A program made the position numbers and the translations under genes. DNA of 64,000 nucleotides, taken from NCBI GenBank assembly GCA_000092065.1, contig CP000591.1, one strand, 5' to 3'. The stretch is from Ostreococcus lucimarinus (lineage: Eukaryota). Numbering within the stretch: position 1 is the first letter of the stretch; the number at the start of each line of letters is the position of its first letter. Positions 49,978 through 62,874 of this stretch are shown piece after piece. The notes under the pieces are model-generated. The model was not told the origin of the DNA, ran no database searches, and saw only the letters and a list, made by a program, of their open reading frames with translations.

Positions 49978-50058
49978 GACTGTTAAAACGTAGAGACATT
50001 CAACATTCGCTCGCTTGATTCATTTCCTTTTCCTTCACACCGCGGCGCGTCGCCCGAG

Positions 50059-51102
50059 ATGTCCGACGCCGAGCGCGCGGACGACGTGTCGAGCGATGCG
50101 TCGAGCGAGCTCGCGCGCCTTCGCGACGTTGCCGCGCGCGATGATTGGCTCGTCGAGGTCCCATCGTCGAGCTGTGCGTTGGAACGCTCGCTCGGCTGCG
50201 GATCGTCCGGTGAAGCGTTTCTGGCGTCCTGGCGCGGCGCGCGCGTGGTGGTGAAGACCATGAAACTATTACACGACGATGACGCCGCGAGAAGGGCGCT
50301 GGCGCGAAGAGCGTTCGTGAGAGAGTGCGAAATCATGGCGAGGCTGAGACACCCAAACGTGTTGGCGTTTTACGGGGCGAACGCGAACGGGAGAGACGCG
50401 AGCGTGGTGTGCGAGTACGCCCCGGGCGGGACGCTGAAGCAGTGGTTGCACGAAAATAAAGGGAAGAAACGGTCGCTAAGCGCGCGGTTGGGGATGGCGT
50501 TGGATATCGCGAGAGCGTTCGCGTATTTGGAGTCGCGAACGCCTCGCGTGATGCATCGAGATTTGAAACCGAGCAACGTGTTCGTGAGCGTCGATGGACG
50601 AGCGCTCGTGGCGGATTTCGGGTTGGCACGATTTGTTGCGCCAAGAGGAGAAGATCTCACAGGAGAGACCGGGACGTACATATACATGGCGCCGGAGGTG
50701 ATTAAGAGTCAACATTACGACGAACGCGCTGACGTGTTCTCGTATGGGATTTTACTTTACGAGCTGGTCACGGGAATAGAACCGTACCAACCGCATCATT
50801 TCACGGGGATTCAAATCGCAACGGCCGTCGCAGATCGCGCGTTTCGGCCGAAGATTCCGGATTCCACGCACGCCGGATTAACAGCCATCATTGAGATGTG
50901 TTGGCAACAAGACGCAAGCAATCGGCCGTCATTCGAACGTGTTCGTGAATCGATGGAAACCATGGTTCCGGACATTCTCAAAGAGGAAGAGACAAAACTC
51001 GCAGAACAACGTGAGAATCCAAGTTTTCAAGCGAAGACGCTCCAAAATTTATCGAGTACGCTCGCCGATTGGTCGAAAAAGATGTCCGATTTAGCTTCGT
51101 AG
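50059..51102 (+). CDS. Protein kinase (TKL-like Ser/Thr kinase)
   Basis: GCGSSGEAFLASWRGARVVVK (G-loop and VAVK lysine), HRDLKPSNVFV, DFGLAR and YMAPEV. Confidence 0.85.
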   Translation: MSDAERADDVSSDASSELARLRDVAARDDWLVEVPSSSCALERSLGCGSSGEAFLASWRGARVVVKTMKLLHDDDAARRALARRAFVRECEIMARLRHPNVLAFYGANANGRDASVVCEYAPGGTLKQWLHENKGKKRSLSARLGMALDIARAFAYLESRTPRVMHRDLKPSNVFVSVDGRALVADFGLARFVAPRGEDLTGETGTYIYMAPEVIKSQHYDERADVFSYGILLYELVTGIEPYQPHHFTGIQIATAVADRAFRPKIPDSTHAGLTAIIEMCWQQDASNRPSFERVRESMETMVPDILKEEETKLAEQRENPSFQAKTLQNLSSTLADWSKKMSDLAS

Positions 51103-51167
51103 CGCGATTAACAAAGTTTGGTTTCCACACAAAACCACTTCCCTGCGCGCGTCAAACAGCGACGGAC

Positions 51168-52148
51168 ATGCGTCGTCGACACAAACGTATAATATCCCAT
51201 GTGATTGCGACACTCATGCTTAATTGTAGGGGAACGGTGCTCGCCGCGGACGTTCGACCTCGAGACGAAACCGACGCCATCGTCGGTGCGCGAGGCGCAA
51301 TGTCGAGCCGCATCATAGGTGGAGTCATACCTGACTCTCCGTTATCAAAATACGCGCATGTTGTGGCTATTTTTGTTCAATCTGGGATGAGCGAGTACTT
51401 TCGTTGCGGTGGAACGCTCATCTCCAACGTGCACGTCATGTCTGCCGCGCACTGTTTCTTTGACCGCGCCGGCGTGTCGAACGTTGGAGCGTATTCATCG
51501 GTGGTCGTCAGATTCGGCGCACACGCCGACGTGAATGCGGGTGCGATGACGGCGAGCGTTGTCCGCATAGATGGACATCCTGAGTTCAGTGATATTACCT
51601 GGGACAACGACGTTTCAGTCCTCACGCTTTCGTCTCCCGTCGACGTCGCATCGTACCCGCCCGTTGTACTAGCTTGGAATCCGGCCGACATCAACGTCGG
51701 CCAGATCGCACACGTCGTCGGTTGGGGCACTCGAGACGATAACATGTTAAGCAAAGTGATGATGGAAGGTACGGTGCCCATTGTGTCACACGCGCAGTGC
51801 ACCGCCGCCGGCAGTTACGCCCCGAGTGAAATTCTGCCTTCGATGGTCTGCGCCGGTTACGCCCAAGGCGGCGTCGACGCGTGCCAGGGAGATTCCGGCG
51901 GTCCGTTGATTCAGAATTCAAAGCAAATCGGGATCGTCAGTTGGGGCGAAGGATGCGCGCTCCCACAAAAGTACGGCGTGTACTTCGCCGTGCGCGCCGC
52001 GCAAGGCTTTCTGGCTCTCGCCACGGATTCGTCGGTGTATCAATTTTCGCCTTCCGACGACCAAGCATCGCCGCCGCCATCGCCGACGCCGACGCCGACC
52101 CCGCAATTTCCCATTTTCAGTGGACTCTTCGCCTGGCTCTCGGCGTGA
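51168..52148 (+). CDS. Trypsin-like (S1) serine protease, secreted
   Basis: IIGG activation site, catalytic His in SAAHCF, Asp in DNDVSVLTL and Ser in CQGDSGGPL. Signal peptide, Pro/Thr-rich and hydrophobic C-terminus. The first ATG is at 51168. Confidence 0.8.
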   Translation: MRRRHKRIISHVIATLMLNCRGTVLAADVRPRDETDAIVGARGAMSSRIIGGVIPDSPLSKYAHVVAIFVQSGMSEYFRCGGTLISNVHVMSAAHCFFDRAGVSNVGAYSSVVVRFGAHADVNAGAMTASVVRIDGHPEFSDITWDNDVSVLTLSSPVDVASYPPVVLAWNPADINVGQIAHVVGWGTRDDNMLSKVMMEGTVPIVSHAQCTAAGSYAPSEILPSMVCAGYAQGGVDACQGDSGGPLIQNSKQIGIVSWGEGCALPQKYGVYFAVRAAQGFLALATDSSVYQFSPSDDQASPPPSPTPTPTPQFPIFSGLFAWLSA

Positions 52149-52444
52149 ATAACTAAACTAGAGAAATAATTTTGTCGTCGCGTCGCCACCGCTGGGCGGC
52201 GCACCGCGCCACCGCTGGGCGCTGGTCCGCCCGCGCGTCACCGCACACCCCGACGCTCGCGTCGACCGCCCGTCCACGGATCGCCGGTCGGTACATGCGC
52301 GTCGCCCGCGCCGTCGCTCGCATCAGCGTCGTCGTACGCCCCCCCGCGCGACAAACAGCGCGACGACACGCGGTGCCCGCGACTCGTCCACGCGCGACGA
52401 ATTTCTTCTTCAACGCCTCGCGAGGCGTCGCCGCGAGCGCCGCG

Positions 52445-52802
52445 ATGGGGAACGACGACGTCACGGTGACGTTTAGTCACAACTGAGGTGCGTCGGCGCG
52501 TCACGACGGACGAAGGCTCGAGACGAGGGGAAAGATGGGCGACGCGTGGGTTTTGAGACTGACTGAACGACGCTCGACGCGCAGACGGAGGGATGCAAGA
52601 ATTCGAAGCCGCGAAGTCGGCGATTCTTAAGGTGAAACCCAGCGCGAATGTGATCGCGAATCGCGTGGACGCGTATCCGATCACCGTCAGGGTAAGCGTG
52701 GGCGAACGCGAAGTGTGGAGCGGGAGACAACAGCTGTTGTTCCGGAAAAATGGAAGACCGGCGATGAAGGATATCGAGGAAGCGATGCGAAAGCTCGGTT
52801 GA
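52445..52802 (+). CDS. Candidate SelW/Rdx-like selenoprotein: exon 1 52445-52487 containing an in-frame TGA (52484-52486), a 97-nt intron 52488-52584, and exon 2 52585-52802
   Basis: Spliced product MGNDDVTVTFSHN-U-DGGMQEFEAAKSAILKVKPSANVIANRVDAYPITVRVSVGEREVWSGRQQLLFRKNGRPAMKDIEEAMRKLG is 86 aa, matching SelW in length and rough pattern (VxVxF..xU near the N-terminus; xxVxVxGxxVxS...G.P C-terminal half). The intron has a GTGCGT donor, a CTGAC branch 21 nt before a CAG acceptor, the same signals as the DJ-1 intron. The track sees only exon 2 as ORF 52593..52802. Confidence 0.45.
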
Positions 52803-52860
52803 TGCCGGGATGAGATTCCGCGAGATAGGTGTGAAGGCGGCGCGCGACGGGGCGAAGGTG

Positions 52861-52913
52861 ATGACGAAGGATTCAACAAACTTGCTCTACGAGCGGGGAG
52901 AATTCTTTTGATG
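52861..52913 (+). promoter_or_regulatory. SECIS-like element candidate in the 3' UTR of the putative selenoprotein
   Basis: ATGA-c-GAAGGATT-caacAAA-cttgctc-tac-gagcggg-gag-AATTCTTT-t-GA-tg. A 5' ATGA and a 3' GA flank an 8-bp helix (2 G-U pairs), an unpaired AAA, and a distal 7-bp mini-helix: a Form-2-like layout. Folded by eye only. Confidence 0.3.
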
Positions 52914-53151
52914 ATGCTCGTTTCTTCGCGCGATACCGCGCTTTGCGTCTGGTTATGATTTTTACTGTACCGGTACTATTGTAAGAGTACTCCGTTAGAC
53001 CATATTTATTACTCAACGATGAAGCGTTATACCGAGACGCTCGCGCGGTGCCTTCTCGAACGAAAACACGCGCATCGCGGCTACGAAGAATGTGAATAAT
53101 GCCAAATGTACGACATCGGTATTAAAAAATCGCTCTAACGCGCGCTCGCAC

Positions 53152-54389
53152 TTACACTCCCGTTACCTTGCCCTGAATGGAGTCTTCATCGGGCAAATCC
53201 TCGAACAGCTTCATCCAGTTCGGAATCCCAGCTCCAGACTTCCAAATCGTACCGTTCTTCGCCACGCCGAAGAAGACGTCGCGAACCGTTGGATCAAAAC
53301 CGGACGATTCGATTTGATTGATGATCCAGCGCTTCCAAGCTCCATTGTCCACAGGCATGAGCTTCAGCTTCTTGTCACCGCCGAGCAGCGCAGCCGCCGC
53401 ACTAGCGGTGAGCTCGGTGGTCTTTGAAGTCTTCGCTTTGCGTCTTCGCTGACCAAACGGCAACTCGTCTCCGGATTCTTCGCCGCTCTCGTCCATGGCC
53501 ACCGGTAAGATGACAATCTTATTCTTCGTCAACTTTTCCTTGAACCTCTCCAAACTTTCGAGGGTTTTTGTGATATGCTCTTCGCTCCCCGCGACGATGA
53601 AGACGCGATACGATCCGCGCAAGCGCGAAAACAACACATTCTTATCGCCGTCGCCGAGCGTCACGCCCAAGCGCCCCAACTCTTCCTCGCGCTCAACTTT
53701 CTGAATGATTTTCTCGCGCCCTTGAAGTTCACCGCGCAATAACACCGAGAACGCGAGGAGCCCGACGGTATTGATTCCTAAATTCGTCACCGTCTCGGTC
53801 AAATCGGGCGCGCCCTCGCCCCCCTGCACCGCCTTGATCAGACGCGTGCCGATGATGAACAAACCCAAACCCGCCCCCGCGGCTAATCCTCCGAATAAAT
53901 AAAGCTTGAAGAATCGAAACGGTTCTTGCGCCTCCGCGCGCAAATTCACCATCGTCGACGCGCCTCGACCTCCCTTCACCGCCGCCGCGACTTCTCCGTA
54001 CTGCGTCGACGCTCGAAACGCGTCCAAATCCGGGTCGCTCGTCAGCACCTTGAACTTCAAATTATGCACGTTCACCGCCGCGATGAGATCGTCCTTCGCC
54101 TCGTCGTACATGTTCATCTTGACGTATCCACACGCTCGATTATAACTCGCCGCCCTGGCCTCGTCTTCGTTCGGTTTCATCTCCAGCGCTCGCGTGAACG
54201 CCCGCGTCGCCGCCTCGTGTTCGCCCCTCTCGAACAATCGCAGTCCCTCGTTCACCGCCGTCGCCGCGTCCGCGTACGACGCGCGCGTCGTCGTCGACGA
54301 CGATTCGTCCGACGCGCGCGTTCGAGTCGCCGTTCGCACGCTCCCCGCGCGTCGTCGTCGCCTCGCGCCCGCGTCGTCCATCGTCGTCG

Positions 54390-54422
<33 letters not shown>

Positions 54423-54531
54423 CGCGCGTCGCGCCGGCGCGTCCCGCGTCGCGCGACGTCGCGCGCGCGCGTCGCCCCGCGCGCGTCGCGACGACCCGCG
54501 GCGCGCTCGCGCGGACGCGCGCCGTCGACAT
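53152..54531 (-). CDS. LPA1-like protein (N-terminal TPR plus DUF3493-type two-TM region), plastid-targeted-looking
   Basis: Transit-peptide-like N-terminus with poly-Thr. TPR region EGLRLFERGEHEAATRAFTRALEMKPNEDEARAASYNRACGYVKMNMYDEA. Hydrophobic segments FKLYLFGGLAAGAGLGLFIIG and NTVGLLAFSVLL. First ATG at 54529-54531. Confidence 0.45.
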
Positions 54532-54717
54532 CGCGCGATGGGCGACGCGATAAGGCGCGGTGTGACGCCGAGGACGGCGATTTCGTCTTCGTATGGGCAA
54601 ACAGTGTGATTCCTAAACCCCAGGACGGACGCGACGTCCGGACGCGCCGTCGCCGACCGCGCGCGACGCGCCGCAGGTGGCGACGCGCGCGAACGCGTCG
54701 GCGCGAGAAAGCGCGCG

Positions 54718-55692
54718 ATGGCGGCGCGAGCGACGCGCGCGCGACCGGGACGCGCGGTCGAGCGCGCGAGACGCGACGACGCGCGGAAAGGATGGCGAGG
54801 CAGAGGACGCGCGCGGGGCGCGACGAGGACGAAGACGACGACGACGACGACGACGACGGAGACGAGCGAGGAAGAGGAAGCGACGTGGACGCGAGCGAAA
54901 ATCGCGGTGCGACGACGGATCGAGGGCGGGGACGAAGACGTGTACGCGAACGCGCTGGCGAGCGAGGAGGCGACGACGCGGGACGACGACGAGACGCGAG
55001 CGACGACGTCGACGTCGAGCGCGACGCACGCGATGGATGTGTTGGCGTTCAGACGTCTGAGCGCGATGATGAATACGTTTGAGAAGAATGTGGAGACGCA
55101 CGGGATCGCGAGACAGGTGGTGGTGATCACGGCTGGGGCGGATACGCGGGCGTTTCGATTGCCGTTTCCGAGCGGAACGGCGATTTTCGAGTGCGCGGAC
55201 GGGACGGTGCACACGAAAGCGGCAGCCGTGATGAAGAAAGTTGGGGCGAAACCTTCGAAGGGGTGCTCGCACAGGCGCGTGCCGGTGGATGCGACCGCGA
55301 CAGACGCGGCTTATGGTGATTTAGAGGAACGTTTGGAACGCGCGGGATACCGCCCAGACGTGCGCTCGTTGTGGTTGGTGCAAGACGTACACGCGTGGGA
55401 TCACTCGCGGTTGTCGAATTTCATCACCGAAAGTGCGGATTTGATGACAACCGGGAGCGAACTCATCATAGACGCCAGCGCGTTGACGTCGACGGACGAC
55501 ATCATTCGTCGAGAATTTGCGTCAAACGGCGTCATGCCCGAAGTCGTGCGCATCCCCGCCGACGAAGGTCGAGAGCCCATTCGTTTAGTCTTAGGATGCG
55601 CCCAGCGAGTGTCGCTGAAGGAGTCGGAGTATTATCGTGAGCAATTGCGCGCCGCCGAGGACGAGGCTGACGAAGACGGCTTTGAGGACTGA
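54718..55692 (+). CDS. LCM-type (leucine carboxyl methyltransferase-like) SAM-dependent methyltransferase
   Basis: QVVVITAGADTRAFRLPFP matches the LCM family VVxLGAGxDTRxxRL motif. N-terminal presequence with poly-Thr. Confidence 0.5.
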   Translation: MAARATRARPGRAVERARRDDARKGWRGRGRARGATRTKTTTTTTTTETSEEEEATWTRAKIAVRRRIEGGDEDVYANALASEEATTRDDDETRATTSTSSATHAMDVLAFRRLSAMMNTFEKNVETHGIARQVVVITAGADTRAFRLPFPSGTAIFECADGTVHTKAAAVMKKVGAKPSKGCSHRRVPVDATATDAAYGDLEERLERAGYRPDVRSLWLVQDVHAWDHSRLSNFITESADLMTTGSELIIDASALTSTDDIIRREFASNGVMPEVVRIPADEGREPIRLVLGCAQRVSLKESEYYREQLRAAEDEADEDGFED

Positions 55693-55735
55693 TCAGCTTT
55701 TCACGAGCTTCATTAATGTACAACACGAAATTTGA

Positions 55736-58700
55736 TTACAACTTTGACTTCTTCCCGTCCTTTTCCTTCTTCTCCTTCTTCTCTTTCTTCTCTTTCTTCG
55801 CCTTCTTCGCCTTCTTCTCTTTCTTAAATTCATGCGTTTTACGCTTTTTGTCTTTCACCTCAGCCTCTGGCGCGTCTTCGTCCGCTTCGGAATCCTCGAA
55901 GACCACTTTTTTGCCTTGCGAGTCGCCGCCGCCTTGCTCCATCCAATCGATCGCCGTGTGATCGCTCGTGGAGTCGAGTGGTGAACTTATAGCTTCAGTT
56001 TCGATCAAATCATCTAGCCCTCTCGGATCAGATGCATTTTGAGCGCCGATACCCTTCTCCCGAAGCACTCGAAGCGTCTTTTGCATGTCAAATTCAGCTT
56101 CTCGTTGCGCTTTGCGCGCGGGCTGCAGCGCGAGCGGACTGTGCATCTCTTTCGCCTTTTCGCGCGATCCAACCACCATTCGTGATGAACGACTGAGCAT
56201 TTTTTGCTCAAATATCGGTAGAGCAAAGTCAAATCCAGAGTTTGGGCCGTGCTTTCGTACTCCATCAACCAAGGTGTCGGCAAGAAGGACGGCGTCACTC
56301 ATGGCTTGATTCGCACCTTGCGCCTTGAATGGAGTCATCGGGTGAGCGGCGTCACCAATCAACGTGACGCGACGCTTTGATTCATCAGTAGGGCGGAGTA
56401 ATACCGGATCGAGCAATTCCCTGTCGTACACTGGGTAGCCCGACATACAATCCAGCGGCGTGTTGCGAAGCAAATCTGGAACAGGGTCATGCCACTGCGC
56501 ACAACGCCGAACTATTTCCTCCTTTAGCGTCGTCGCATCTTTCGTGTATTGACGCGCTGTTTCTTCAGAGCATGGAAAAGATAGCTGCCACATAGTCGAA
56601 GTAGTCGTGAAGGGCATGGCATACAACCGTGTGGCGCCGTCGACCGTCTCAAAAATACGTCGATGCGCGAGCGGTACGTTCATTATCTTCTCATCCACGA
56701 TTCCTAGCACGACACACAATCCAACATAGTTCAGACGATCTCCTGGGAGGTCTAAATGACGTCGCACGGTTGAGAATATCCCGTCCGACCCCACGAGTAG
56801 AGCTCCATCGAGCTCGGTACCATCCGTGGACGCGACGGAGACTCCATTTTCGCGAGCCACAAAGCTCTTGAGCTTGCTATTCCAGCGAATAGTTCCCGGT
56901 TGCACAGCTTCGATGATGCGAGATCGAAGCACTTGACGGGGTATATGAATGAATCGTCCAGAATTTTGCACCTCGCGACGTTCACGCGACTTTGCTCCAA
57001 AAGCCTCTCCGAAAAATCCAATAATGTGCCCCTCTGCGTCAAAGGTGTAATGTGACGTCGAAGGAGCATCGTCTTGAGATATGTCAACGCCCATGGCTTG
57101 TATAGCGTCTTGGGCTTGCACAGTGAGCCCATATCCTTGAGCGCGCGCGTCAAAGCTTTCATCTGACTCCAACACGATGACATCGAATCCTTTGCTCTGC
57201 AATGCCACGGCTGCCGCCGCGCCTCCTATGCCCCCACCAGCGATTATAACTCGTCCACATTTCGAAACGTCGACGGGAGGACCGTATTTTTCATTGTTCG
57301 CGCCGTGTCGTTGCTGCTTGAGATGCTTCACCACACTATGCTGTCCAGCCGTCGTAAACGCCCACTCCAAATTGTTCAACTCTTCATCACTGAACTCATC
57401 CATGAGTCTCTTCACTGATCGAGCCAGCGCGGTAAACAACGCATCGTTTACTTGTCCGGAGTTTGCAAACGTCCAAGCGACGTTAACCAGATCTTGAGCG
57501 TTGAAATTATCCGCTTGGTGCTCGGCCGCGGATGCCAATGCGACAAAGAGAGCCTCGCTGAGTTGGCTTGCTTGGTCAAACGTCCAAACTATGTTGGCGA
57601 TATTCGGCGCATCTAAATCGTTCAGTCGATGATCCAATATCGATTTTCGCGCTGCAACAAAAAGTTTGGCATCATATCGACCGAGTTTTGCAAACGCCCA
57701 CGTGGTATTCACGAGGTCTTGGGTGTTGAAATCAGCCAAGCACCGTTCTGACAGGCTCGCCAACGAAGTGAATAACTTTTCGTCGTGATGACACGCCTTC
57801 CCGAAAGCCCAGGCGGTATTGGCAATATCCTGAGAATTAAACTCACTCGCATTCGCGGTCATTCTGCGCTCGATAGAACGACCGAACTTGGAAAAAAGTT
57901 CGGCGTCCAGATGCCCACATTTGGAAAAAGACCAAACCGTGTTCGTCAAGCCTTGCGCGTTCAAGGCGCTCAGGTGCCGCTCTGCGTGCTTGGCGAGCGT
58001 CGTAAACAATTTTGCGTCGTATTGTCCCGCCTTAGCGAACGCGTAGATGAGATTTGAAAAGTCTTGCGCGTTGAAATCATCCAAGCGTTCTTGCGCCTTC
58101 TGCGACATTGCGCGAAACAAACCAACGTCGACAAAGCCCGACTTTGCGAACCCCCAAGCCGTGTTCGACAAACCTTGCGTGTTGAACTCCCCCAAACGTC
58201 TCTCCACACACCGCGCCAGAGCTTTAAACAGCCTCGCGTCGGCGTGTCCCACCGAGGCGAACGCCCAGCAAGTATTCGTGAGCTCTTGCGAATTAAATCG
58301 CTCCGCGTGTCGCTCCGCCATCCTCGCCAACGCGCTAAACAATCGTTCACACTTGTAATCCGCCTTGGCGAACGCCCACGCAATGTTCGCCAACTCTTGC
58401 CCTCGATCGATCCCTCCCAAGTGTCGCTCTATCGCCTTCGCGAGCGCGGCGAACAACTCCTCGCTCCCTCCTCCCTTGGCCGCGCCGTGCGCCACGTTCG
58501 CCAGCTCCCGTCCCCCCATCTTCGATCGCTCATCCCTCACGAATTCGATCGTGTGCGCGATCAATCGTTCGTGCGCATCATTCATCCCGTCCCCATCGCT
58601 CGAGCTCGCCCGTTCACCGTCGCATCGCATCCGTCCGACGCTCGTCCACACCGCCGACAGGTGAATGTGATTCATCCGTCCCGCGCTCTCGTCTCGCAGC

Positions 58701-59008
58701 GCGTACACCTCGCGCAACGATCGCGCGTTCTTCACGTTCGCCGTCAGCAACGCCGGCGAGGGCGCGTTCCCGCGTCTCGCTCCTCCGCTCCCCCCCGTCG
58801 TCGTTCCCATCGTCGTCATCGCGTTCGTTTTCCTCGCCGCCGGCGCCGGCGTCGCGCCCAGTCCGCACGCCGCCCGCGCGTCCGCGCGCGACATCCCTCC
58901 GACCTCGAGCGCGCGCGCGCGCGCCTTCGCGCGCTCCTTCTTCCCCATCTTCTTTTTCTTCGCCGTCGCCGTCGTCGTCGCGTCGCCGTCGCCGTCGCCG
59001 TCGCCCAT
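55736..59008 (-). CDS. Fusion protein: ~12 OPR/HPR (FAST-kinase-like) repeats followed by a FAD-dependent monooxygenase domain and a Lys-rich tail
   Basis: The repeats are ~38 aa, of type FN[ST]Q[ED]L[TS]NTxWAFAKxGxxDxxLFxALA. In the same ORF come the FAD-binding GRVIIAGGGIGGAAAAVALQSKGFDVIVLE, RVTLIGDAAHPMTPFKAQGANQAMSDA and a C-terminal KKEKKAKKAKKEKKEKK. There is no stop codon between the repeat array and the monooxygenase domain. ATG at 59006-59008. Confidence 0.7.
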   Translation of the reverse strand: MGDGDGDGDATTTATAKKKKMGKKERAKARARALEVGGMSRADARAACGLGATPAPAARKTNAMTTMGTTTGGSGGARRGNAPSPALLTANVKNARSLREVYALRDESAGRMNHIHLSAVWTSVGRMRCDGERASSSDGDGMNDAHERLIAHTIEFVRDERSKMGGRELANVAHGAAKGGGSEELFAALAKAIERHLGGIDRGQELANIAWAFAKADYKCERLFSALARMAERHAERFNSQELTNTCWAFASVGHADARLFKALARCVERRLGEFNTQGLSNTAWGFAKSGFVDVGLFRAMSQKAQERLDDFNAQDFSNLIYAFAKAGQYDAKLFTTLAKHAERHLSALNAQGLTNTVWSFSKCGHLDAELFSKFGRSIERRMTANASEFNSQDIANTAWAFGKACHHDEKLFTSLASLSERCLADFNTQDLVNTTWAFAKLGRYDAKLFVAARKSILDHRLNDLDAPNIANIVWTFDQASQLSEALFVALASAAEHQADNFNAQDLVNVAWTFANSGQVNDALFTALARSVKRLMDEFSDEELNNLEWAFTTAGQHSVVKHLKQQRHGANNEKYGPPVDVSKCGRVIIAGGGIGGAAAAVALQSKGFDVIVLESDESFDARAQGYGLTVQAQDAIQAMGVDISQDDAPSTSHYTFDAEGHIIGFFGEAFGAKSRERREVQNSGRFIHIPRQVLRSRIIEAVQPGTIRWNSKLKSFVARENGVSVASTDGTELDGALLVGSDGIFSTVRRHLDLPGDRLNYVGLCVVLGIVDEKIMNVPLAHRRIFETVDGATRLYAMPFTTTSTMWQLSFPCSEETARQYTKDATTLKEEIVRRCAQWHDPVPDLLRNTPLDCMSGYPVYDRELLDPVLLRPTDESKRRVTLIGDAAHPMTPFKAQGANQAMSDAVLLADTLVDGVRKHGPNSGFDFALPIFEQKMLSRSSRMVVGSREKAKEMHSPLALQPARKAQREAEFDMQKTLRVLREKGIGAQNASDPRGLDDLIETEAISSPLDSTSDHTAIDWMEQGGGDSQGKKVVFEDSEADEDAPEAEVKDKKRKTHEFKKEKKAKKAKKEKKEKKEKKEKDGKKSKL

Positions 59009-59046
59009 CGTCGCCACTGCGCGTCGCGCACTGCGCGTTCGGCGTC

Positions 59047-59763
59047 ATGGCGCCGGGCGTCGAGATGGTGCGCGTCGAGCGCGCCGAGCGCGCGTACGAT
59101 CGAGAGAAAGCGCTCGGTCGAGACGCCGCGAGCGTGTTCCCGTCGCTCGCGCGCGACGGCGACGGCGCCGCCGACGGAGACGCGCGAAAAGACGACGACG
59201 ACGCGACGCGCAAAAAGTTTGTCACCGAGAGCGAGCTCGAACGACTTCGCGCGCTCGGCGGGAGCGACGGCGGGGACGCGAGCGGCGCGAGCGACGCGCG
59301 AAACGACGACGCGAACGCGGGTAAACCGCTGTATCAAATCCTGGCCGAGCGCCGGGAAGAGAAAGATCGCGAGTTTCAAGAGCAGTGGGCGTCGATGAAG
59401 GTTGGGAAGAATAAACCGCTGGACGAGGAGGAGGTGGAATTTTTAGATGAAATCGAGAGCGAACGACGGGCGGCGGAGACGAAGAGGAAGCGCGAGGAAG
59501 ACGGTGAGTTAGAGGCGTTTAAACGGGCGCAGCGAGGGGACGATCAGGGAGGGATGACGACGACGAAGGGCGACGGAGAGACGGCGACGACGAGCGCGCC
59601 GGCGGCGGTGGTGGCGAGGAAGCGACCGTCCGCGGGCGTGCGAGCGAAACCGAAGACGGCGATCGCGAGCGAGACGAAGGAGACGGACGATGCGAGCGAG
59701 GGGCTCGGCGGTCTTTTGGGCGATTACGGCTCCGATTCGGACGACGACATCGCGGACTCGTAG
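59047..59763 (+). CDS. FAM192A/NIP30 (PIP30)-like protein
   Basis: KKFVTESELERLRAL, KPLYQILAERREEKDREFQEQWASMKVGKN and LDEEEVEFLDEIE, with an acidic Ser/Asp C-terminus, parallel the FAM192A domain layout. Confidence 0.55.
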   Translation: MAPGVEMVRVERAERAYDREKALGRDAASVFPSLARDGDGAADGDARKDDDDATRKKFVTESELERLRALGGSDGGDASGASDARNDDANAGKPLYQILAERREEKDREFQEQWASMKVGKNKPLDEEEVEFLDEIESERRAAETKRKREEDGELEAFKRAQRGDDQGGMTTTKGDGETATTSAPAAVVARKRPSAGVRAKPKTAIASETKETDDASEGLGGLLGDYGSDSDDDIADS

Positions 59764-59874
59764 TTCGGCGGCGCAAAGGCGGCGCGTCGAATTCGCTTCA
59801 TGTTATTTTGATGAACCAATCAAGCCTCATTCGCGCGCGCGCGTCGTCGTCAGCGTCGTCGACGTCGCGAAGAC

Positions 59875-62874
59875 ATGATCGCATCCTCGCTTGGCGTCGC
59901 CCGAACGTCGTTCGAGCCGCGTCAGAGCGCCGCGGAACGACGAATACGACGCGTTTCTGCGCACCAGTCCACAACCCCCGAAGGCGTTCGCGGATGCGTC
60001 GTCGTGCGACGCCACCGCGGGCGTTCGAGCTCGCGTTGCGTCGCGCGCGCGGTGCATTACGCATGTGATGACGCCACGCCGTCGTGCGTCGCGCGCGATG
60101 CGCACGCGTGCGGACGAAATGGTGCGAGATACGATCCACTCAGGTTGTTGCTTCGGGACGGGACGTCCACGCGCGAGACGACGCGGCGACTGGTGCGATG
60201 TGTGCGATGCGGCGCCGCGGGCGAGAGTCGCGAAAAGAATGAGATGGTAGCGTCGAGCTGTGGGAAAGCGGACGAACGCGTGCGAGGGAAGGTGCGGCGA
60301 GCGTTGCTCGCGAGCGCGGCGAGCGCGGGCGGGTTCGCGGGACGCGCGGGAGCGTTATCGGGAGACGGCGGTTCTGGAGGCGCGGTGGGCGATGGTGGTG
60401 GGGGCGACGACGGTGGTTCGTTCGGTTCAAGTGGAGATAAACCCATATTTGCGTCCAGTGGTCGAAGTGGAGATGGAATTTTGGAGGAAGTGGTGATGCT
60501 TGACGTGCACGGCATGCACTGCGGCGGATGCGCGGCGAGCGTGCGGAAAATCTTGGAGGGCGATGACGCCGTGCGAAGCGCGTCGGTGAATTTGGCCAAT
60601 GAGTCCGCCATGGTACGCATTAATTTAGCGATGGGCAAGCTTGAGGGAGGTGAATTTGAAAATGCCGTGAAGGAGGCGGCAAAGAGTGTCGGCACCAAGT
60701 TGGCTGAGCTCGTCACTGCCGCAGGGTTCCCGACGTCTCTGCGCGACGCTGGTGGAGTCGCTGTTGCGGGAGTTACGGGTGCCGAGGCGACGAAACTAAA
60801 GAGAGACGAACGTTTGCGACGGATTAAAGAAAGCACGCAGCGCGTGATCGTGGCTTGGGCTCTCGCGAGCGCGTGCTTGTTGGGACACGTTTCACATTTT
60901 TTCCACGCGAGCGCGCCGTGGCTCAGAGTCTTGCACAGTAATCCCGTTCACATCACGCTCTCGCTCTTTGCCATGGCAGGACCAGGGCGTCAGATTTTGA
61001 TTGATGGCTGGCAAAGTTTGCGACGAGGAGGTCCGAATATGAACACGTTGGTATCCCTCGGAGCCATGGCATCTTTTTCGATGAGCACGGCGGCCATGAT
61101 GCTCCCAGGCTTAGGTTGGCCCACGTTCTTCGAGGAGCCCGTCATGTTACTAGCATTCGTACTTCTTGGGAGAGCAGTCGAGGAACGTGCCAAGCTTCAA
61201 GCAACGAGTGATATGTCTGCGCTACTGAATCTAGTGCCAGAGACCGCTCGCTTGGTGTCATCGACTTCCACGGCAAACGGAGATGAGCCATACTATCGTA
61301 CAGTTCCGACGTCTGTCATCGAAGTAAAGGATAAAATCATCGTTTTACCTGGAGATAGAATTCCCATCGATGGCACGGTAGTGAGTGGATGCAGTACGGT
61401 GGATGAAGCCGCCATCACTGGCGAGCCAATCCCTCGGCCGAAAAAAGCCGGCGACACGGTAGCGGCGGGAACAGTGAACTGTGATGGCGTTTTGACGATT
61501 GAAGTCGTGTCTTCAGGAGAAGAAACGCAAGTAGCTGGTATCGTTCGCATGGTGGAGTCAGCGCAACAACGCGAAGCGCCAGTGCAGCGACTTGCAGATC
61601 AAGTCTCTGGCAAGTTTGTGTACGGTGTGATGGCAGCGAGCGCGGCGACGTTCACGTTTTGGAGCACCGTCGGCACGAAAGTCTTCCCCGGTGTTCTTGC
61701 GACAGCTGCTTCGGCAACTAATGCACCAATTTTGATTGCACTTCAAATGACGGCGTCAGTCTTAGTCGTTGCGTGCCCGTGTGCTCTTGGTTTGGCGACG
61801 CCGACGGCGGTACTCGTCGGCACGGCGCTCGGCGCCCGCCATGGCCTTCTCATTCGCGGTGGAGACATCTTAGAAAAAGCCAACAATTTAGACACCGTTA
61901 TTTTCGACAAAACTGGAACGTTGACTATTGGTAAACCAGTATTGACGGAAACGCGCACAAGCGGGGGCTTTAGCGACGCTGAAATCATCGCTCTTGCGGG
62001 AGCGGTCGAGCGAAACTGTCGCCACCCGTTGGCGTTAGCCATCACCGAAGCGGCTGATAAGCAAGGAATTCCCCGGCATTCAGTTGATGAAGGAACGTTC
62101 AAGCAGGAGCCCGGCGCTGGAGCGAGTGCTGTGGTGAATAAGAAGCTGGTTTCCGTCGGCACAACCTTCTACATTCAAGGCAACAATACCGTGCCGATGG
62201 AGCTGATCAATGCCGTGGACAACCCAGGTCGCACGCCGGTGTACGTCGGAATCGATGGCAAAATCGTGGGTGTTTTAGAGATGCAAGACGAAATTCGTAA
62301 GGACGCGGCCGAAACCATCAAGCGACTTCATGCGAAGAATATACAAACTATCATGATTTCGGGCGACAGGCTTGAAACGGCCCAAGCAGTAGGCAAACTC
62401 GTGGGCATCGATGAAAAGTACGTATACGGGGATGTACGACCCGAGGGAAAAGCTGAACTCGTACAAGACTTTCAGTCGAAGGGCAAATGCGTCGCAATGG
62501 TCGGTGATGGTATCAACGACGCCGCAGCTTTGGCACAGGCAGACATCGGCATCGCCATGGCGGGCGGCGTCGGCGCCGCAAGCGAAGTCGCTTCCATCGT
62601 CTTGCTCGGCGATAGATTACCGCAAGTCGGCGATGCGATCGACTTGAGCAGAGCAACGTTTAACAAAATTAAGCAGAATCTGTGTTGGGCTTTTGGGTAC
62701 AACCTGATCGGTATTCCGATAGCCGCTGGCGCTTTATTGCCAGCATATGGATTGTCGCTCACGCCATCCGTGGCGGGCGCCATCATGGGATTTTCATCCC
62801 TTGGTGTCATGGGGAACTCTTTACTTTTGAAACTAAAAGGTCGAGAGCTTTCGAAGGCCGAGGAAGATGATTAA
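59875..62874 (+). CDS. Copper-transporting P1B-type ATPase (HMA/PAA-like) with an N-terminal presequence and one HMA domain
   Basis: HMA motif GMHCGGCAASV, CPC in CPCALGLATP, DKTGTLT, GDGINDAAALAQADIGIAMAGG. The true start may be the downstream ATG at 60244 (876 aa), since only 111 bp separate it from the upstream gene. Confidence 0.85.
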   Translation: MIASSLGVARTSFEPRQSAAERRIRRVSAHQSTTPEGVRGCVVVRRHRGRSSSRCVARAVHYACDDATPSCVARDAHACGRNGARYDPLRLLLRDGTSTRETTRRLVRCVRCGAAGESREKNEMVASSCGKADERVRGKVRRALLASAASAGGFAGRAGALSGDGGSGGAVGDGGGGDDGGSFGSSGDKPIFASSGRSGDGILEEVVMLDVHGMHCGGCAASVRKILEGDDAVRSASVNLANESAMVRINLAMGKLEGGEFENAVKEAAKSVGTKLAELVTAAGFPTSLRDAGGVAVAGVTGAEATKLKRDERLRRIKESTQRVIVAWALASACLLGHVSHFFHASAPWLRVLHSNPVHITLSLFAMAGPGRQILIDGWQSLRRGGPNMNTLVSLGAMASFSMSTAAMMLPGLGWPTFFEEPVMLLAFVLLGRAVEERAKLQATSDMSALLNLVPETARLVSSTSTANGDEPYYRTVPTSVIEVKDKIIVLPGDRIPIDGTVVSGCSTVDEAAITGEPIPRPKKAGDTVAAGTVNCDGVLTIEVVSSGEETQVAGIVRMVESAQQREAPVQRLADQVSGKFVYGVMAASAATFTFWSTVGTKVFPGVLATAASATNAPILIALQMTASVLVVACPCALGLATPTAVLVGTALGARHGLLIRGGDILEKANNLDTVIFDKTGTLTIGKPVLTETRTSGGFSDAEIIALAGAVERNCRHPLALAITEAADKQGIPRHSVDEGTFKQEPGAGASAVVNKKLVSVGTTFYIQGNNTVPMELINAVDNPGRTPVYVGIDGKIVGVLEMQDEIRKDAAETIKRLHAKNIQTIMISGDRLETAQAVGKLVGIDEKYVYGDVRPEGKAELVQDFQSKGKCVAMVGDGINDAAALAQADIGIAMAGGVGAASEVASIVLLGDRLPQVGDAIDLSRATFNKIKQNLCWAFGYNLIGIPIAAGALLPAYGLSLTPSVAGAIMGFSSLGVMGNSLLLKLKGRELSKAEEDD

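What the first reader, a model, noticed from the sequence alone, without database searches (positions are those of the whole stretch)
55736..59008. Single ORF fusing an OPR/HPR repeat array to a FAD-dependent monooxygenase
OPR/HPR/FAST-like repeat proteins are organellar RNA-binding factors and normally end in a RAP domain. Here ~12 repeats (type F-N-S/T-Q-E/D-L-T/S-N-T-x-W-A-F-A-K-x-G) run straight, with no stop, into a canonical class A flavoprotein monooxygenase (GGGIGG ... GDAAHPMTPFKAQGANQAMSDA) and then a poly-Lys tail. I do not know of this domain combination.
Basis: partly seen in the sequence, partly recalled or inferred. Interest (0 to 1): 0.65.

Follow-up and report, generated by a model that had tools for sequence, protein, structure and literature searches.

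The report
Helical-repeat array fused to flavin monooxygenase
This is a real, strongly conserved algal gene that joins an RNA-binding-type helical-repeat array to an intact flavin monooxygenase; no paper found here describes it, and it may be a new kind of RNA-modifying enzyme that works outside the organelles.

Summary
Window 55736-59008 (- strand) is one uninterrupted 1090-codon ORF. It encodes 11 canonical 37-residue repeats (Pfam FAST_1 E=3.9e-21; RESC6-like), then a complete group A FAD monooxygenase (FAD_binding_3 E=3.2e-20; all three cofactor motifs invariant) and a Lys/Glu-rich tail.

The fusion is not an artefact. The same architecture occurs in about 60 protein clusters at 45-95% identity. 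These come from green algae, cryptophytes, haptophytes, bolidophytes, dinoflagellates and the plastid-less parasite Amoebophrya, and include transcript-derived complete ORFs and a syntenic independent assembly.

N-termini are RGG/GKG- or Lys-rich, lack signal-peptide-like hydrophobic stretches, and the family survives where the plastid is lost.

The same monooxygenase clade is fused elsewhere to a Bmt2-type (25S rRNA m1A methyltransferase family) domain. It is fused once to a DDX21-type helicase, and in bacteria and diatoms to a basic CxxCxGxG zinc knuckle.

Best reading (inferred, about 45%): a protein-guided RNA, probably rRNA, base oxidase acting in the nucleus or cytosol. The main rival is a small-molecule hydroxylase tethered by the repeats. 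I found no paper on this fusion. Interest 0.72.

The parts
55736..59008 (-). Whole CDS (1090 codons plus TAA stop) of the HPR-monooxygenase fusion protein
   Evidence: The same uninterrupted ORF is found in the syntenic contig L008.
58754..59008 (-). N-terminal tail, aa 1-85. It has an acidic start, a basic motif KKKKMGKKERAKARARAL (helix aa 23-47, pLDDT about 90) and a vestigial RG motif (GGARRGN).
   Evidence: The motif is conserved among the closest relatives. Most other orthologues have RGG/GKG repeats at this position.
58523..58753 (-). Conserved N-cap helical block, aa 86-162 (SPALLTxxIKNA...NHIHLSAxW), forming two degenerate hairpins
57284..58522 (-). Array of 11 heptatricopeptide (37-aa) FAST/RESC6-like repeats, aa 163-575. 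The B helix of the last repeat is the basic junction helix (VKHLKQQRH; consensus VKxLRQRRKR).
57254..57283 (-). Short conserved linker, aa 576-585 (VDVSKCG), leading into the Rossmann fold with no Met and no stop
   Evidence: The distance from EWAF to GGGIGG is 44-51 aa in most orthologues.
56231..57253 (-). Group A FAD-dependent monooxygenase core, aa 586-926
   Evidence: FAD_binding_3; NicC E=2.2e-23; TetX TM-score 0.83.
57221..57238 (-). GxGxxG dinucleotide-binding motif GGGIGG (aa 591-596)
   Evidence: G591, G593 and G596 are invariant; G592, I594 and G595 are at least 90% conserved across the 56 sequences.
56759..56791 (-). DG motif GSDGIFSTVRR (aa 740-750), the FAD/NAD(P)H fingerprint of class A monooxygenases
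   Evidence: D742, G743, S746 and R749 are invariant.
56291..56356 (-). GD motif GDAAHPMTPFKAQGANQAMSDA (aa 885-906)
55979..56230 (-). Family-specific conserved C-terminal helical extension, aa 927-1010 (FExKMLxRSxxxVxGSREKAKEMHS..ALQPARKxQRE...GIGA..DPRGLD)
   Evidence: The first half is shared with the bacterial, diatom and Bmt2-type relatives; the second half is specific to the HPR-fused group.
55739..55978 (-). Disordered acidic then Lys/Glu-rich tail, aa 1011-1090 (22 K in the last 41 aa)

Best explanation
The ORF is a genuine nuclear gene of a GC-rich, intron-poor green picoalga. It belongs to a strongly conserved, undescribed protein family.

The polypeptide has seven parts in order:
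1. A basic N-terminal tail.
2. A helical N-cap.
3. A register-conserved array of 11 heptatricopeptide (FAST/RESC6-type) repeats.
4. A short basic junction.
5. A cofactor-competent group A FAD/NAD(P)H monooxygenase.
6. A family-specific helical extension.
7. A Lys/Glu-rich tail.

Proposed mechanism: the repeat array, together with the basic tails, binds one conserved RNA that is encoded in the nucleus. This is most likely (pre-)ribosomal RNA in the nucleolus or cytosol, not an organellar transcript. Binding positions one flipped-out base in the monooxygenase pocket. There, reduced flavin plus O2 oxidises (hydroxylates) the base. In logic this is a protein-guided RNA base oxidase, analogous to PPR-DYW editing factors.

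Shown: the architecture, its conservation, the intact cofactor motifs, single-transcript orthologues, the non-organellar-looking termini, and the recurrent fusion of this monooxygenase clade to RNA-related modules.

Inferred: RNA binding, RNA as the substrate, the chemistry, and the location.
For: The fusion is real.
- One ORF with no Met or stop at the junction.
- About 60 clusters share the architecture at 45-95% identity.
- Transcript-derived complete ORFs exist in Teleaulax amphioxeia and Gymnodinium smaydae.
- Syntenic contig L008, non-syntenic L009 and L007 all carry uninterrupted ORFs.

The two halves look like one unit.
- The junction length is constant at 44-51 aa in most orthologues, with a conserved basic helix.
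- The AlphaFold2 model has pLDDT 82.6 and pTM 0.76 even though about 130 residues are disordered.

The repeats are RNA-binding-type and conserved in register.
- FAST_1 E=3.9e-21.
- The best solved relative is RESC6: E=1.7e-23 and TM-score 0.75. The RESC5/6 crevice holds the 3' end of the guide RNA (PMC12936278).
- HPR proteins bind RNA, not DNA (PMC12691811).
- Orthologous repeats are 45-56% identical across lineages, against 29-38% for non-orthologous repeats. Position 6 varies between repeats yet is 84% conserved between orthologues. This suggests one conserved ligand read repeat by repeat.

The enzyme looks active.
- The GxGxxG, DG and GD motifs and many pocket residues are invariant in 56 sequences.
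- The nearest characterised relatives act on substrates the size of a nucleobase: NicC on 6-hydroxynicotinate and HpxO on urate, which is a purine.

Termini point to RNA-protein complexes.
- Most orthologues have an RGG/GRG/GKG-rich N-terminus.
- The window protein has Lys-rich N- and C-terminal tails.

The same monooxygenase clade (35-46% identity, shared invariant motifs) is fused to other nucleic-acid-related modules.
- A Bmt2 domain, from the 25S rRNA m1A2142 methyltransferase family, in at least 20 clusters including Ochromonas danica.
- A DDX21/DDX50-type DEAD-box helicase, in one uninterrupted 1845-codon ORF.
- A basic CxxCxGxG zinc knuckle in marine bacteria and diatoms.

There is precedent for this kind of repeat array guiding an RNA-modifying enzyme.
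- PseudoU_synth_2 fusions, including an MMETSP complete transcript (P0110).
- A Peptidase_U32 plus RAP fusion. To my knowledge U32 is the family of the RNA hydroxylases RlhA and TrhP.

The target is probably not organellar.
- All but one N-terminus lack a signal-peptide-like hydrophobic stretch; that one gene model reaches 2.9 on the same score.
- The protein is present in Amoebophrya sp. [quoted passage not shown]
Against: - To my knowledge, no class A flavoprotein monooxygenase is known to act on RNA. A literature search found none.
- The repeat array is net acidic: -4 in the window protein and a mean of -8.8 across 56 orthologues. That is unusual for an RNA-binding solenoid, so affinity for the RNA backbone would have to come from the basic tails and the junction helix.
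- To my knowledge, the Pfam Bmt2 family also includes the human SAM sensor SAMTOR. A methyltransferase plus monooxygenase pair is also typical of small-molecule tailoring pathways. The Bmt2 fusions are therefore suggestive, not decisive.
- The DDX21-type helicase fusion rests on one metagenome scaffold.
- DnaJ-type CxxCxGxG fingers usually bind proteins.
- No localisation predictor could be run.
- Bacterial gene neighbourhoods gave no functional hint.
- No target RNA or modified nucleoside has been identified.
Confidence: 0.45

Rival explanations
1. The protein is a small-molecule hydroxylase with a helical-repeat scaffold. The monooxygenase oxidises a soluble aromatic or heteroaromatic metabolite, as every characterised relative does. 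The repeat array only tethers, oligomerises or regulates the enzyme, for example by docking it on a protein complex or RNA-protein particle, or by coupling its activity to RNA binding.
For: - All nearest characterised homologues are small-molecule enzymes: NicC, HpxO, TetX, PhzS, 3HB6H and tropone monooxygenase.
- The repeat array is net acidic.
- OPR/HPR-like folds also serve as purely structural subunits, for example Polytomella ATP synthase ASA2/ASA3 and mitoribosomal proteins.
- Bare members of the monooxygenase clade exist with no N-terminal module (P0238, P0241, P0246).
- Methyltransferase plus monooxygenase pairings are common in metabolite tailoring (my own knowledge).
Against: - It does not explain why the same monooxygenase clade repeatedly acquires nucleic-acid-type modules: HPR, a Bmt2-family domain, a DDX21-type helicase and a basic zinc knuckle.
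- It does not explain the RGG N-termini.
- It does not explain the repeat-by-repeat conservation across major eukaryotic lineages.
- The catalytic His47 of NicC is replaced by Leu.
- No curated enzyme model is passed.
- Bacterial relatives sit in no conserved catabolic or biosynthetic operon.
Confidence: 0.3
2. The protein is a MICAL-like oxidase of a macromolecule. The repeat array docks on a protein or RNA-protein partner. The flavin domain then oxidises a protein side chain, or releases H2O2 locally, as a regulatory switch.
For: - MICAL is a class A monooxygenase fused to targeting domains that oxidises actin methionines (my own knowledge), so there is precedent for a macromolecular substrate.
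- The bacterial and diatom sister clade carries a DnaJ-type CxxCxGxG knuckle, a motif usually associated with binding polypeptides.
- The acidic repeat surface would suit a basic protein partner.
- Many orthologues carry a C-terminal SH3/Tudor-like module.
Against: - There is no sequence relationship to MICAL beyond the common fold, and no CH or LIM domains.
- The closest solved relative of the repeat array is part of an RNA-binding crevice.
- The links to rRNA methyltransferase-family and RNA helicase domains favour RNA.
Confidence: 0.1
3. The protein is an organellar (plastid or mitochondrial) OPR/HPR-type gene-expression factor that happens to carry an enzyme domain.
For: - Almost all characterised FAST, HPR and OPR proteins are organellar (PMC6212722, PMC12691811).
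- Most named carriers of the fusion are plastid-bearing algae.
- If translation began at Met21, the window N-terminus would be rich in Ala, Arg, Thr and Gly.
Against: - There is no RAP or FAST_2 domain.
- The first 10 residues include four Asp, and the KKKKxGKKER motif upstream of Met21 is conserved in relatives.
- Orthologues from algae with secondary plastids lack the obligatory signal peptide and start with RGG/GKG repeats. One transcript-derived complete ORF (P0045) starts 9 residues before the conserved block.
- The family is retained in plastid-less Amoebophrya, whose mitochondrial genome is vestigial or absent.
Confidence: 0.08
4. The fusion is an artefact: two adjacent genes merged by a sequencing or assembly error, or by chance read-through in a GC-rich genome.
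For: GC-rich genomes give long spurious ORFs; many overlapping ORFs appear. GC at the third codon position falls along the gene from 0.91 to 0.44.
Against: - Both halves are in one frame, the linker is only 10 residues, and the second half has no Met.
- The junction is conserved in sequence and length in about 50 orthologues.
- Independent assemblies and transcriptomes show the same fusion.
- The fall in third-position GC is gradual, with no step at the junction.
Confidence: 0.02

Closest known systems
HPR/FAST-type helical-repeat RNA-binding proteins (human FASTK/FASTKD1-5, apicomplexan HPR and RAP proteins, trypanosome RESC6, mitoribosomal mL115/mL157/mL162)
   Same: The repeat is the same 37-residue two-helix unit. 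Pfam FAST_1 is passed at 75 bits. RESC6 is the best solved match by sequence (E=1.7e-23) and by fold (TM-score 0.75).
   Different: There is no FAST_2 or RAP domain; a flavin monooxygenase takes their place. The termini look nuclear or cytosolic rather than organellar. Sequence conservation across major eukaryotic lineages is far higher than is usual for this fast-evolving class.
PPR-DYW (PLS-class) RNA editing factors of plant organelles
   Same: The design logic is the same. An N-terminal alpha-solenoid would read an RNA sequence, and a C-terminal catalytic domain in the same polypeptide would chemically change one base.
   Different: There is no homology: no PPR or DYW hit. The catalytic domain is a flavin monooxygenase rather than a zinc deaminase. 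The compartment is probably different. RNA binding and the site of action are not shown here.
Group A flavoprotein monooxygenases: NicC (6-hydroxynicotinate 3-monooxygenase), HpxO (urate hydroxylase), TetX, PhzS, 3-hydroxybenzoate 6-hydroxylase
   Same: The fold is shared (TetX TM-score 0.83; HpxO, NicC and PhzS 0.74-0.83). So are the GxGxxG, DG and GD fingerprints and sequence similarity (NicC E=2.2e-23).
   Different: Identity is only 20-24%. No curated equivalog cut-off is reached, for example HpxO 102 bits against 500 and PRK06753 119 against 365. NicC His47 aligns with Leu. The protein also has a roughly 580-residue N-terminal repeat module and a family-specific C-terminal extension.
Sister monooxygenases of the same clade with other N-terminal modules: Bmt2-domain fusions (Ochromonas danica and at least 20 clusters) and CxxCxGxG zinc-knuckle fusions (Tenacibaculum, Moritella, Flavobacterium, Opitutaceae, diatoms)
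   Same: The monooxygenase domains are 35-46% identical. They share invariant motifs: QGY(G/A)LT.Q, HI.RQ.LR, DGI.S, MWQLS(F/Y)P, SG(Y/H)PVYDR and GDAAHPM.PFK.QGANQA.
   Different: The N-terminal module differs. All of these proteins are uncharacterised, and none passes an NCBIfam cut-off.
MICAL (class A monooxygenase fused to CH/LIM targeting domains, oxidises F-actin)
   Same: It is a precedent for a group A flavin monooxygenase attached to a targeting module and acting on a macromolecule (my own knowledge).
   Different: The targeting domains are unrelated, the substrate is a protein, and no specific sequence similarity was seen.
Known RNA base hydroxylases RlhA (ho5C2501 of 23S rRNA) and TrhP/TrhO (ho5U34 of tRNA)
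   Same: The predicted outcome, hydroxylation of a base in a stable RNA, would be the same (papers listed). A Peptidase_U32 (RlhA/TrhP-family) domain is also found fused to HPR repeats plus RAP in Chrysophaeum (P0064).
   Different: The enzyme families are entirely different: peptidase U32 and rhodanese-like, not flavin monooxygenases.

Membership tests
HPR / FAST-like helical-repeat proteins | Tandem two-helix repeats of about 37 residues | tested here: met
   There are 11 anchors with spacings 37,37,37,37,37,41,37,38,37,37. AlphaFold2 shows 13 helical hairpins over aa 85-575.
HPR / FAST-like helical-repeat proteins | Profile match to FAST_1 / RESC6-type models | tested here: met
   FAST_1 scores 75.2 bits against a cut-off of 27.4, E=3.9e-21. 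RESC6 chain 8fn4_6 scores E=1.7e-23. Foldseek against 8fni_6 gives TM-score 0.75.
FASTK / HPR-RAP / OPR-RAP subclass | C-terminal RAP domain (and FAST_2 in the FASTK family) | tested here: not met
   There is no RAP or FAST_2 hit at E<=1. The same tool does find RAP in P0064.
HPR / OPR organellar trans-acting factors | Organellar targeting (transit peptide or presequence; signal peptide in algae with secondary plastids) | tested here: inconclusive
   No predictor was available. A heuristic check finds RGG/GKG- or Lys-rich N-termini and a maximum 10-residue hydropathy of 1.4 or less in all but one gene model, which reaches 2.9. The family is present in plastid-less Amoebophrya A120. This leans against organellar targeting.
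HPR / FAST-like helical-repeat proteins | Sequence-specific RNA binding | not testable with these tools
   Only indirect evidence is available: register-conserved repeats and the role of the RESC5/6 crevice in holding RNA.
OPR (octotricopeptide) proteins of Chlamydomonas type | Period of 38-40 residues with a PPPEW-like motif | tested here: not met
   The period is 37 and the consensus is FNAQ(E/D)LANTAWAFAKAG with no PPPEW. The criterion comes from PMC6212722.
Group A (class A) flavoprotein monooxygenases | GxGxxG, DG and GD sequence fingerprints | tested here: met
   GGGIGG at 591-596, GSDGIFSTVRR at 740-750 and GDAAHPM...QGANQA at 885-906. Their core residues (G591/G593/G596, D742/G743/S746/R749) are invariant and the rest at least 90% conserved in 56 orthologues.
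Group A (class A) flavoprotein monooxygenases | FAD_binding_3 profile and PHBH-type fold | tested here: met
   FAD_binding_3 scores 73.1 bits against a cut-off of 22. Foldseek gives TM-score 0.83 for TetX and 0.74-0.83 for HpxO, NicC and PhzS.
Group A (class A) flavoprotein monooxygenases | NAD(P)H- and O2-dependent hydroxylation activity | not testable with these tools
   Needs biochemistry.
Specific enzymes: HpxO, NicC-like PRK06753, 3HB6H, UbiH/COQ6, Tet(X), and AuaG (the label on Symbiodinium orthologues) | Score above the curated equivalog or subfamily cut-off; conserved catalytic residues | tested here: not met
   Scores against cut-offs: PRK06753 118.6 vs 365, HpxO 102.4 vs 500, 3HB6H 107.5 vs 459, Ubi-OHases 74.3 vs 224.65, Tet(X) 48.9 vs 750. 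NicC His47 aligns with Leu.
PPR-DYW RNA editing factors | PPR motifs and a DYW cytidine deaminase domain | tested here: not met
   There is no PPR or DYW hit in Pfam at E<=1. The resemblance is architectural only.
MICAL family | Monooxygenase domain followed by CH and LIM domains | tested here: not met
   There is no CH or LIM hit.

The most novel reading that the evidence does not exclude
This family would be the first class A flavoprotein monooxygenase that works on RNA. It would be a self-guided enzyme acting in the nucleolus or cytosol. Its conserved 11-repeat heptatricopeptide array would select a site in (pre-)ribosomal RNA, and its flavin domain would hydroxylate or otherwise oxidise one base there. 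If so, there is a previously unknown oxidised nucleoside in the cytosolic ribosomes of many marine algae. The Bmt2-fused and zinc-knuckle-fused sister enzymes would make the same kind of mark in other eukaryotes, organelles and bacteria.
Probability: 0.3. Interest if true: 0.88.

Novelty: new variant of a known kind. Interest (0 to 1): 0.72.

Why it matters
- It would add an oxidative, flavin-dependent activity to the enzymes that alpha-solenoid RNA readers are known to deliver: deaminase, nuclease and pseudouridine synthase.
- It would take FAST/HPR repeats out of the organelles, where nearly all known members work.
- It points to an undiscovered RNA modification in ecologically dominant marine phytoplankton: Mamiellophyceae, haptophytes, cryptophytes, dinoflagellates including coral symbionts, and the parasite Amoebophrya.
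- The repeat array stays in register at about 50% identity across major eukaryotic lineages. That makes it an unusually good system for working out the unknown HPR recognition code.
- Even if the substrate turns out to be a small molecule, the family is large, conserved and entirely uncharacterised. Its current database labels ('auaG', 'salicylate hydroxylase', 'UbiH-like') are unsupported.

Tried and rejected
1. Gene-merge or frameshift artefact: rejected.
2. Assignment to a named enzyme (HpxO, NicC, 3HB6H, UbiH/COQ6, TetX, AuaG): no curated cut-off is met and NicC His47 is not conserved.
3. Operon context of the bacterial relatives (Moritella L001-L003, Tenacibaculum L004, Opitutaceae L005, Flavobacteriaceae L006): there are no conserved neighbours, so this is uninformative. 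P0278 was not on record.
4. Literature: searches for HPR or OPR with monooxygenase, FAST with FAD, flavin monooxygenase with RNA modification, CxxCxGxG with monooxygenase, and HPR with nucleolus all found nothing on this fusion. A 2026 alpha-solenoid catalogue and two HPR papers do not mention it.
5. Identity of the extra C-terminal module in orthologues: there are only sub-threshold SH3, Agenet and Tudor_3 hits and no PDB match.
6. AFDB50 fold search for named full-length matches: the library was unavailable.
7. OPR classification: rejected in favour of HPR, because the period is 37 and there is no PPPEW motif.
8. Apparent stand-alone monooxygenases at 60% identity or more: all are truncated gene calls of the fused type.
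9. A step in third-position GC at the junction as a sign of recent fusion: the gradient is smooth.

Full report
**1. The observation**

On the minus strand the window holds one ORF, 55736..59017. The only in-frame ATG upstream of the conserved N-terminal motif is at 59008. This gives 1090 codons and a TAA stop at 55736-55738.

Pfam finds FAST_1 (E=3.9e-21, 75.2 bits, four stretches) and FAD_binding_3 (E=3.2e-20, aa 587-926). It also finds weak DUF1601, a repeat typical of apicomplexan HPR/RAP proteins. There is no RAP and no FAST_2.

A simple anchor search finds 11 repeats with spacings 37,37,37,37,37,41,37,38,37,37. The last repeat runs through a basic helix and 'VDVSKCGRVIIAGGGIGG' into the Rossmann fold, with no stop and no methionine. 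The three class A fingerprints (GGGIGG, GSDGIFSTVRR, GDAAHPM...QGANQA) are present. The tail has 22 Lys in its last 41 residues.

**2. The fusion is real and widespread**

A search of about 5.8 billion proteins returned about 60 clusters with the same architecture (RESC6/RESC8/FAST_1 plus FAD_binding_3). They are 45-95% identical over 80-97% of the query.

Named members are:
- Cymbomonas tetramitiformis and Pycnococcus provasolii (green algae).
- Triparma laevis (bolidophyte).
- Three Symbiodinium species, labelled 'auaG'.
- Chrysochromulina and Emiliania (haptophytes; truncated gene models).
- Teleaulax amphioxeia (cryptophyte).
- Gymnodinium smaydae.

The Teleaulax and Gymnodinium entries, and P0045, are transcript-derived 'complete' ORFs. 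One mRNA therefore carries both halves.

Further support comes from independent DNA:
- A 196-kb metagenome contig is syntenic with the window (HMA ATPase, Fyv6, this gene, LCM, DUF3493/LPA1, kinase). It has the same uninterrupted ORF at 95% identity.
- A 63%-identical relative in a different neighbourhood is also one ORF.
- Shorter hits at 60% identity or more are all truncated calls of the fused type.

The exhaustive scan of 50%-identity representatives collapses the whole family into a handful of clusters (P0050, P0328, P0329, P0330). That is striking for a helical-repeat protein. The same scan adds Amoebophrya sp. A120 (CAD7956004.1, with FAST_1 plus FAD_binding_3) and strain AT5.2.

**3. 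Anatomy**

In a 56-sequence alignment (A1), mean column conservation by region is:

| Region | Conservation |
|---|---|
| Repeats | 0.65 |
| Linker | 0.54 |
| Monooxygenase core | 0.78 |
| C-terminal extension (aa 927-1005) | 0.75 |
| N- and C-terminal tails | about 0.2 |

The distance from EWAF to GGGIGG is 44-51 residues in most orthologues. It includes a conserved basic helix, VKxLRQRRKR.

Orthologous repeats are 45-56% identical between the window protein and cryptophyte, dinoflagellate, bolidophyte or other green-algal proteins. Non-orthologous repeats are 29-38% identical. Repeat position 6 differs between repeats (E/E/E/G/D/G/D/D/H/D/E) but is 84% conserved between orthologues. The array has therefore kept its register since before these lineages diverged or exchanged the gene. 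This is what one expects if each repeat reads a fixed part of one conserved ligand.

AlphaFold2 with this alignment gives pLDDT 82.6 and pTM 0.76. Disorder is confined to residues 1-18, 56-79 and 1012-1090. The model has 13 helical hairpins (aa 85-575) followed by the alpha/beta monooxygenase.

Foldseek against the PDB matches the C-terminal half to TetX (TM-score 0.83), HpxO, NicC, PhzS and 3HB6H. It matches the N-terminal half to RESC6 (0.75). No solved chain covers both halves. By sequence, the best solved relatives are RESC6 (E=1.7e-23) and NicC (E=2.2e-23).

**4. Which enzyme?**

No curated NCBIfam model is passed: PRK06753 119 bits against 365, HpxO 102 against 500, Ubi-OHases 74 against 225. 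The catalytic His47 of NicC aligns with Leu in the invariant 'QGYGLT.Q'. The 'auaG', 'salicylate hydroxylase' and 'UbiH-like' labels on orthologues are therefore unsupported. The nearest characterised enzymes act on substrates the size of a nucleobase, including the purine urate.

**5. Not organellar, as far as sequence can tell**

In the 56 orthologues, the segment before the conserved 'SPALLT..IKNA' block is mostly Gly/Arg- or Gly/Lys-rich. Examples are GGGRGRGRGRGSGRGG, GRGGRGRGG and GKGGYGKGGYGKGG. In the window protein and its close relatives it is a conserved KKKKxGKKERxKxKA helix instead.

Hydrophobic signal-peptide-like stretches are absent in all but one gene model. One transcript-derived complete ORF (P0045) starts 9 residues before the block. 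The window protein begins MGDGDGDGD. Proteins of secondary plastids need a signal peptide, and these orthologues have none.

Amoebophrya A120 keeps the protein. [quoted passage not shown]

RGG boxes and Lys/Glu-rich tails are typical of nucleolar and other RNA-protein-complex proteins (my own knowledge). The organellar framing is therefore unlikely. No localisation predictor could be run.

**6. Guilt by fusion**

Searching with the monooxygenase half alone shows that its closest non-HPR relatives are about 40% identical. They are roughly 480-residue proteins of marine bacteria (Tenacibaculum, Moritella, Flavobacterium, Opitutaceae) and roughly 530-residue diatom proteins.

At exactly the position of the HPR array, these relatives carry an approximately 85-residue basic extension with two CxxCxGxG-type zinc knuckles. 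Sixty of 117 hits carry it. DnaJ_CXXCXGXG is sub-threshold, E about 1e-5.

The exhaustive scan then revealed clade members with long N-terminal extensions. In three of them this is a Bmt2 domain, from the Pfam family named for the yeast 25S rRNA (adenine2142-N1)-methyltransferase. A search with one of these found at least 20 clusters of Bmt2 plus FAD_binding_3 proteins of 840-1150 residues, including Ochromonas danica.

Monooxygenase domains of all four architectures are 35-46% identical to the window's and share about 70 invariant positions.

One relative (P0007, 60% identical) is a single uninterrupted 1845-codon ORF. In it a DEAD-box helicase with the DDX21/DDX50 dimerisation domain precedes the HPR-monooxygenase.

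HPR arrays close to this one are also found fused to PseudoU_synth_2, including an MMETSP complete transcript. They are also fused to Peptidase_U32 plus RAP. To my knowledge U32 is the family of the RNA hydroxylases RlhA and TrhP. Repeat arrays delivering RNA-modifying enzymes are therefore not unprecedented in marine protists.

**7. Mechanism**

These lines converge on an enzyme that is brought to RNA. The most likely substrate is ribosomal RNA during or after nucleolar assembly, and the likely chemistry is flavin-dependent oxidation of a base.

Points that support this reading:
- The RESC5/6 crevice, the nearest structural relative of the array, holds the 3' end of guide RNA (PMC12936278).
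- HPR proteins bind RNA, not DNA (PMC12691811).

Points against it:
- To my knowledge, no class A monooxygenase is known to act on RNA, and a search found none.
- The array is net acidic, with a mean of -8.8.
- To my knowledge, the Bmt2 family also contains the SAM sensor SAMTOR, and methyltransferase plus monooxygenase pairs are common in metabolite tailoring.
- The helicase fusion rests on one scaffold.
- Bacterial neighbourhoods are uninformative.

My estimates are:

| Reading | Probability |
|---|---|
| RNA-oxidase | about 0.45 |
| Tethered small-molecule hydroxylase | about 0.30 |
| MICAL-like protein oxidase | about 0.10 |
| Organellar factor | about 0.08 |
| Artefact | about 0.02 |

**8. 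Comparison with what is known, and novelty**

The protein works like a PPR-DYW editing factor, with a solenoid reader joined to a base-modifying enzyme, but it is not a member of that family. It is a member of the HPR/FAST repeat class and of the group A flavoprotein monooxygenases. It fails the tests for the FASTK/RAP subclass, for OPR, and for every named monooxygenase.

I found no paper on the fusion. I class it as a new variant of a known kind. The family is already present, unrecognised, in public databases.

**9. Source organism (inference only)**

The window averages about 60% GC. It has long intron-free ORFs with only tens of bases between some genes, and it includes a green-lineage LPA1/Rep27-type gene. 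The closest relatives come from marine metagenomes. A more divergent branch (P0061-P0063) has long insertions. This fits a picoalga of the Mamiellophyceae, but no tool named the organism.

Noticed in passing
Orthologues P0020, P0022, P0023 (two copies), P0026, P0028-P0030, P0039, P0043 (C-termini); absent from window 55739-55978: Many orthologues outside the window's close relatives end in an extra module of about 45 residues, 'LWGYxxDxWHKCVLLKxKKSGKHKVxWxDGTxSxLxxDCIQPRxKK'. The window protein has only a K/E-rich tail there ('GKKVVFEDSE' may be a remnant). The module gives only sub-threshold SH3-C_UBE2O, Agenet and Tudor_3 hits and no PDB match, so it may be a small SH3/Tudor-like barrel. To my knowledge Tudor domains bind methylated RG motifs, and the RGG N-termini might supply such motifs.
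   Followed up: partly
P0287, P0290, P0266, P0255, P0295 (bacteria); P0303, P0248, P0412, P0416, P0419 (diatom-like eukaryotes): The sister clade of the monooxygenase carries an N-terminal basic extension with two CxxCxGxG zinc knuckles (60 of 117 hits). The eukaryotic versions have additional long N-terminal extensions that look like organellar presequences. All are uncharacterised, and there is no conserved operon context.
   Followed up: partly
P0382, P0430, P0436, P0371, P0457-P0477 (e.g. Ochromonas danica P0461): There is a conserved family of fusion proteins joining a Bmt2-type methyltransferase domain to the monooxygenase, 840-1150 aa long, in at least 20 clusters. It appears undescribed and is labelled 'salicylate hydroxylase' or left unnamed.
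   Followed up: partly
L007:64-5658 (metagenome scaffold, protein P0007): One uninterrupted ORF joins a DEAD-box helicase that has the DDX21/DDX50 dimerisation domain, and apparently no GUCT domain, to a full HPR-monooxygenase. This is either a real triple fusion in one Mamiellophyceae-like lineage or an assembly error. Only one contig carries it.
   Followed up: partly
P0328 (Amoebophrya sp. AT5.2 gene model, 2871 aa): The gene model combines zf-C2HC5/TRIP4, an AlkB-like 2OG-Fe(II) oxygenase domain, HPR repeats and the monooxygenase. It may be a merged gene model; I did not check it.
   Followed up: no
P0064 (Chrysophaeum taylorii), P0086, P0110, P0115: HPR/FAST repeat arrays are fused to other RNA-modifying-type enzymes. 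P0064 combines Peptidase_U32, DUF3656, HPR and RAP. P0086 combines HPR, PseudoU_synth_2 and SAP. P0110 and P0115 combine HPR and PseudoU_synth_2, and P0110 is an MMETSP complete transcript.
   Followed up: partly
window 55739-59008 (-): GC at the third codon position falls steadily along the gene: N-tail 0.91, N-cap 0.79, repeats 0.63, monooxygenase 0.51, C-extension 0.44. It then rises to 0.71 in the tail. Neighbouring genes range from 0.52 to 0.79. There is no step at the domain junction.
   Followed up: partly
window 55692-55736 and 59008-59047: Gene packing is extremely tight. Only 43 bp separate the stop codons of this gene and the convergent LCM-methyltransferase gene. Only 38 bp separate its ATG from the ATG of the divergent FAM192A/Fyv6 gene. 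The same spacing is seen in the syntenic contig L008, so the untranslated regions must overlap neighbouring genes.
   Followed up: partly
window 48190-62874: Neighbouring genes are ordinary nuclear genes of a green alga: an SNM1/DRMBL plus BRCT repair nuclease, a protein kinase, an LPA1/Rep27-like protein (TPR plus DUF3493) with long poly-Thr runs, an LCM-family methyltransferase, Fyv6, and a heavy-metal P-type ATPase (HMA). There is no functional link to the finding.
   Followed up: partly
L009:1823-4915: In the 63%-identical relative, the gene immediately upstream encodes an LRR plus A_deamin (adenosine deaminase acting on RNA/tRNA family) protein, and a Utp12 gene lies nearby. This is probably coincidental.
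   Followed up: no
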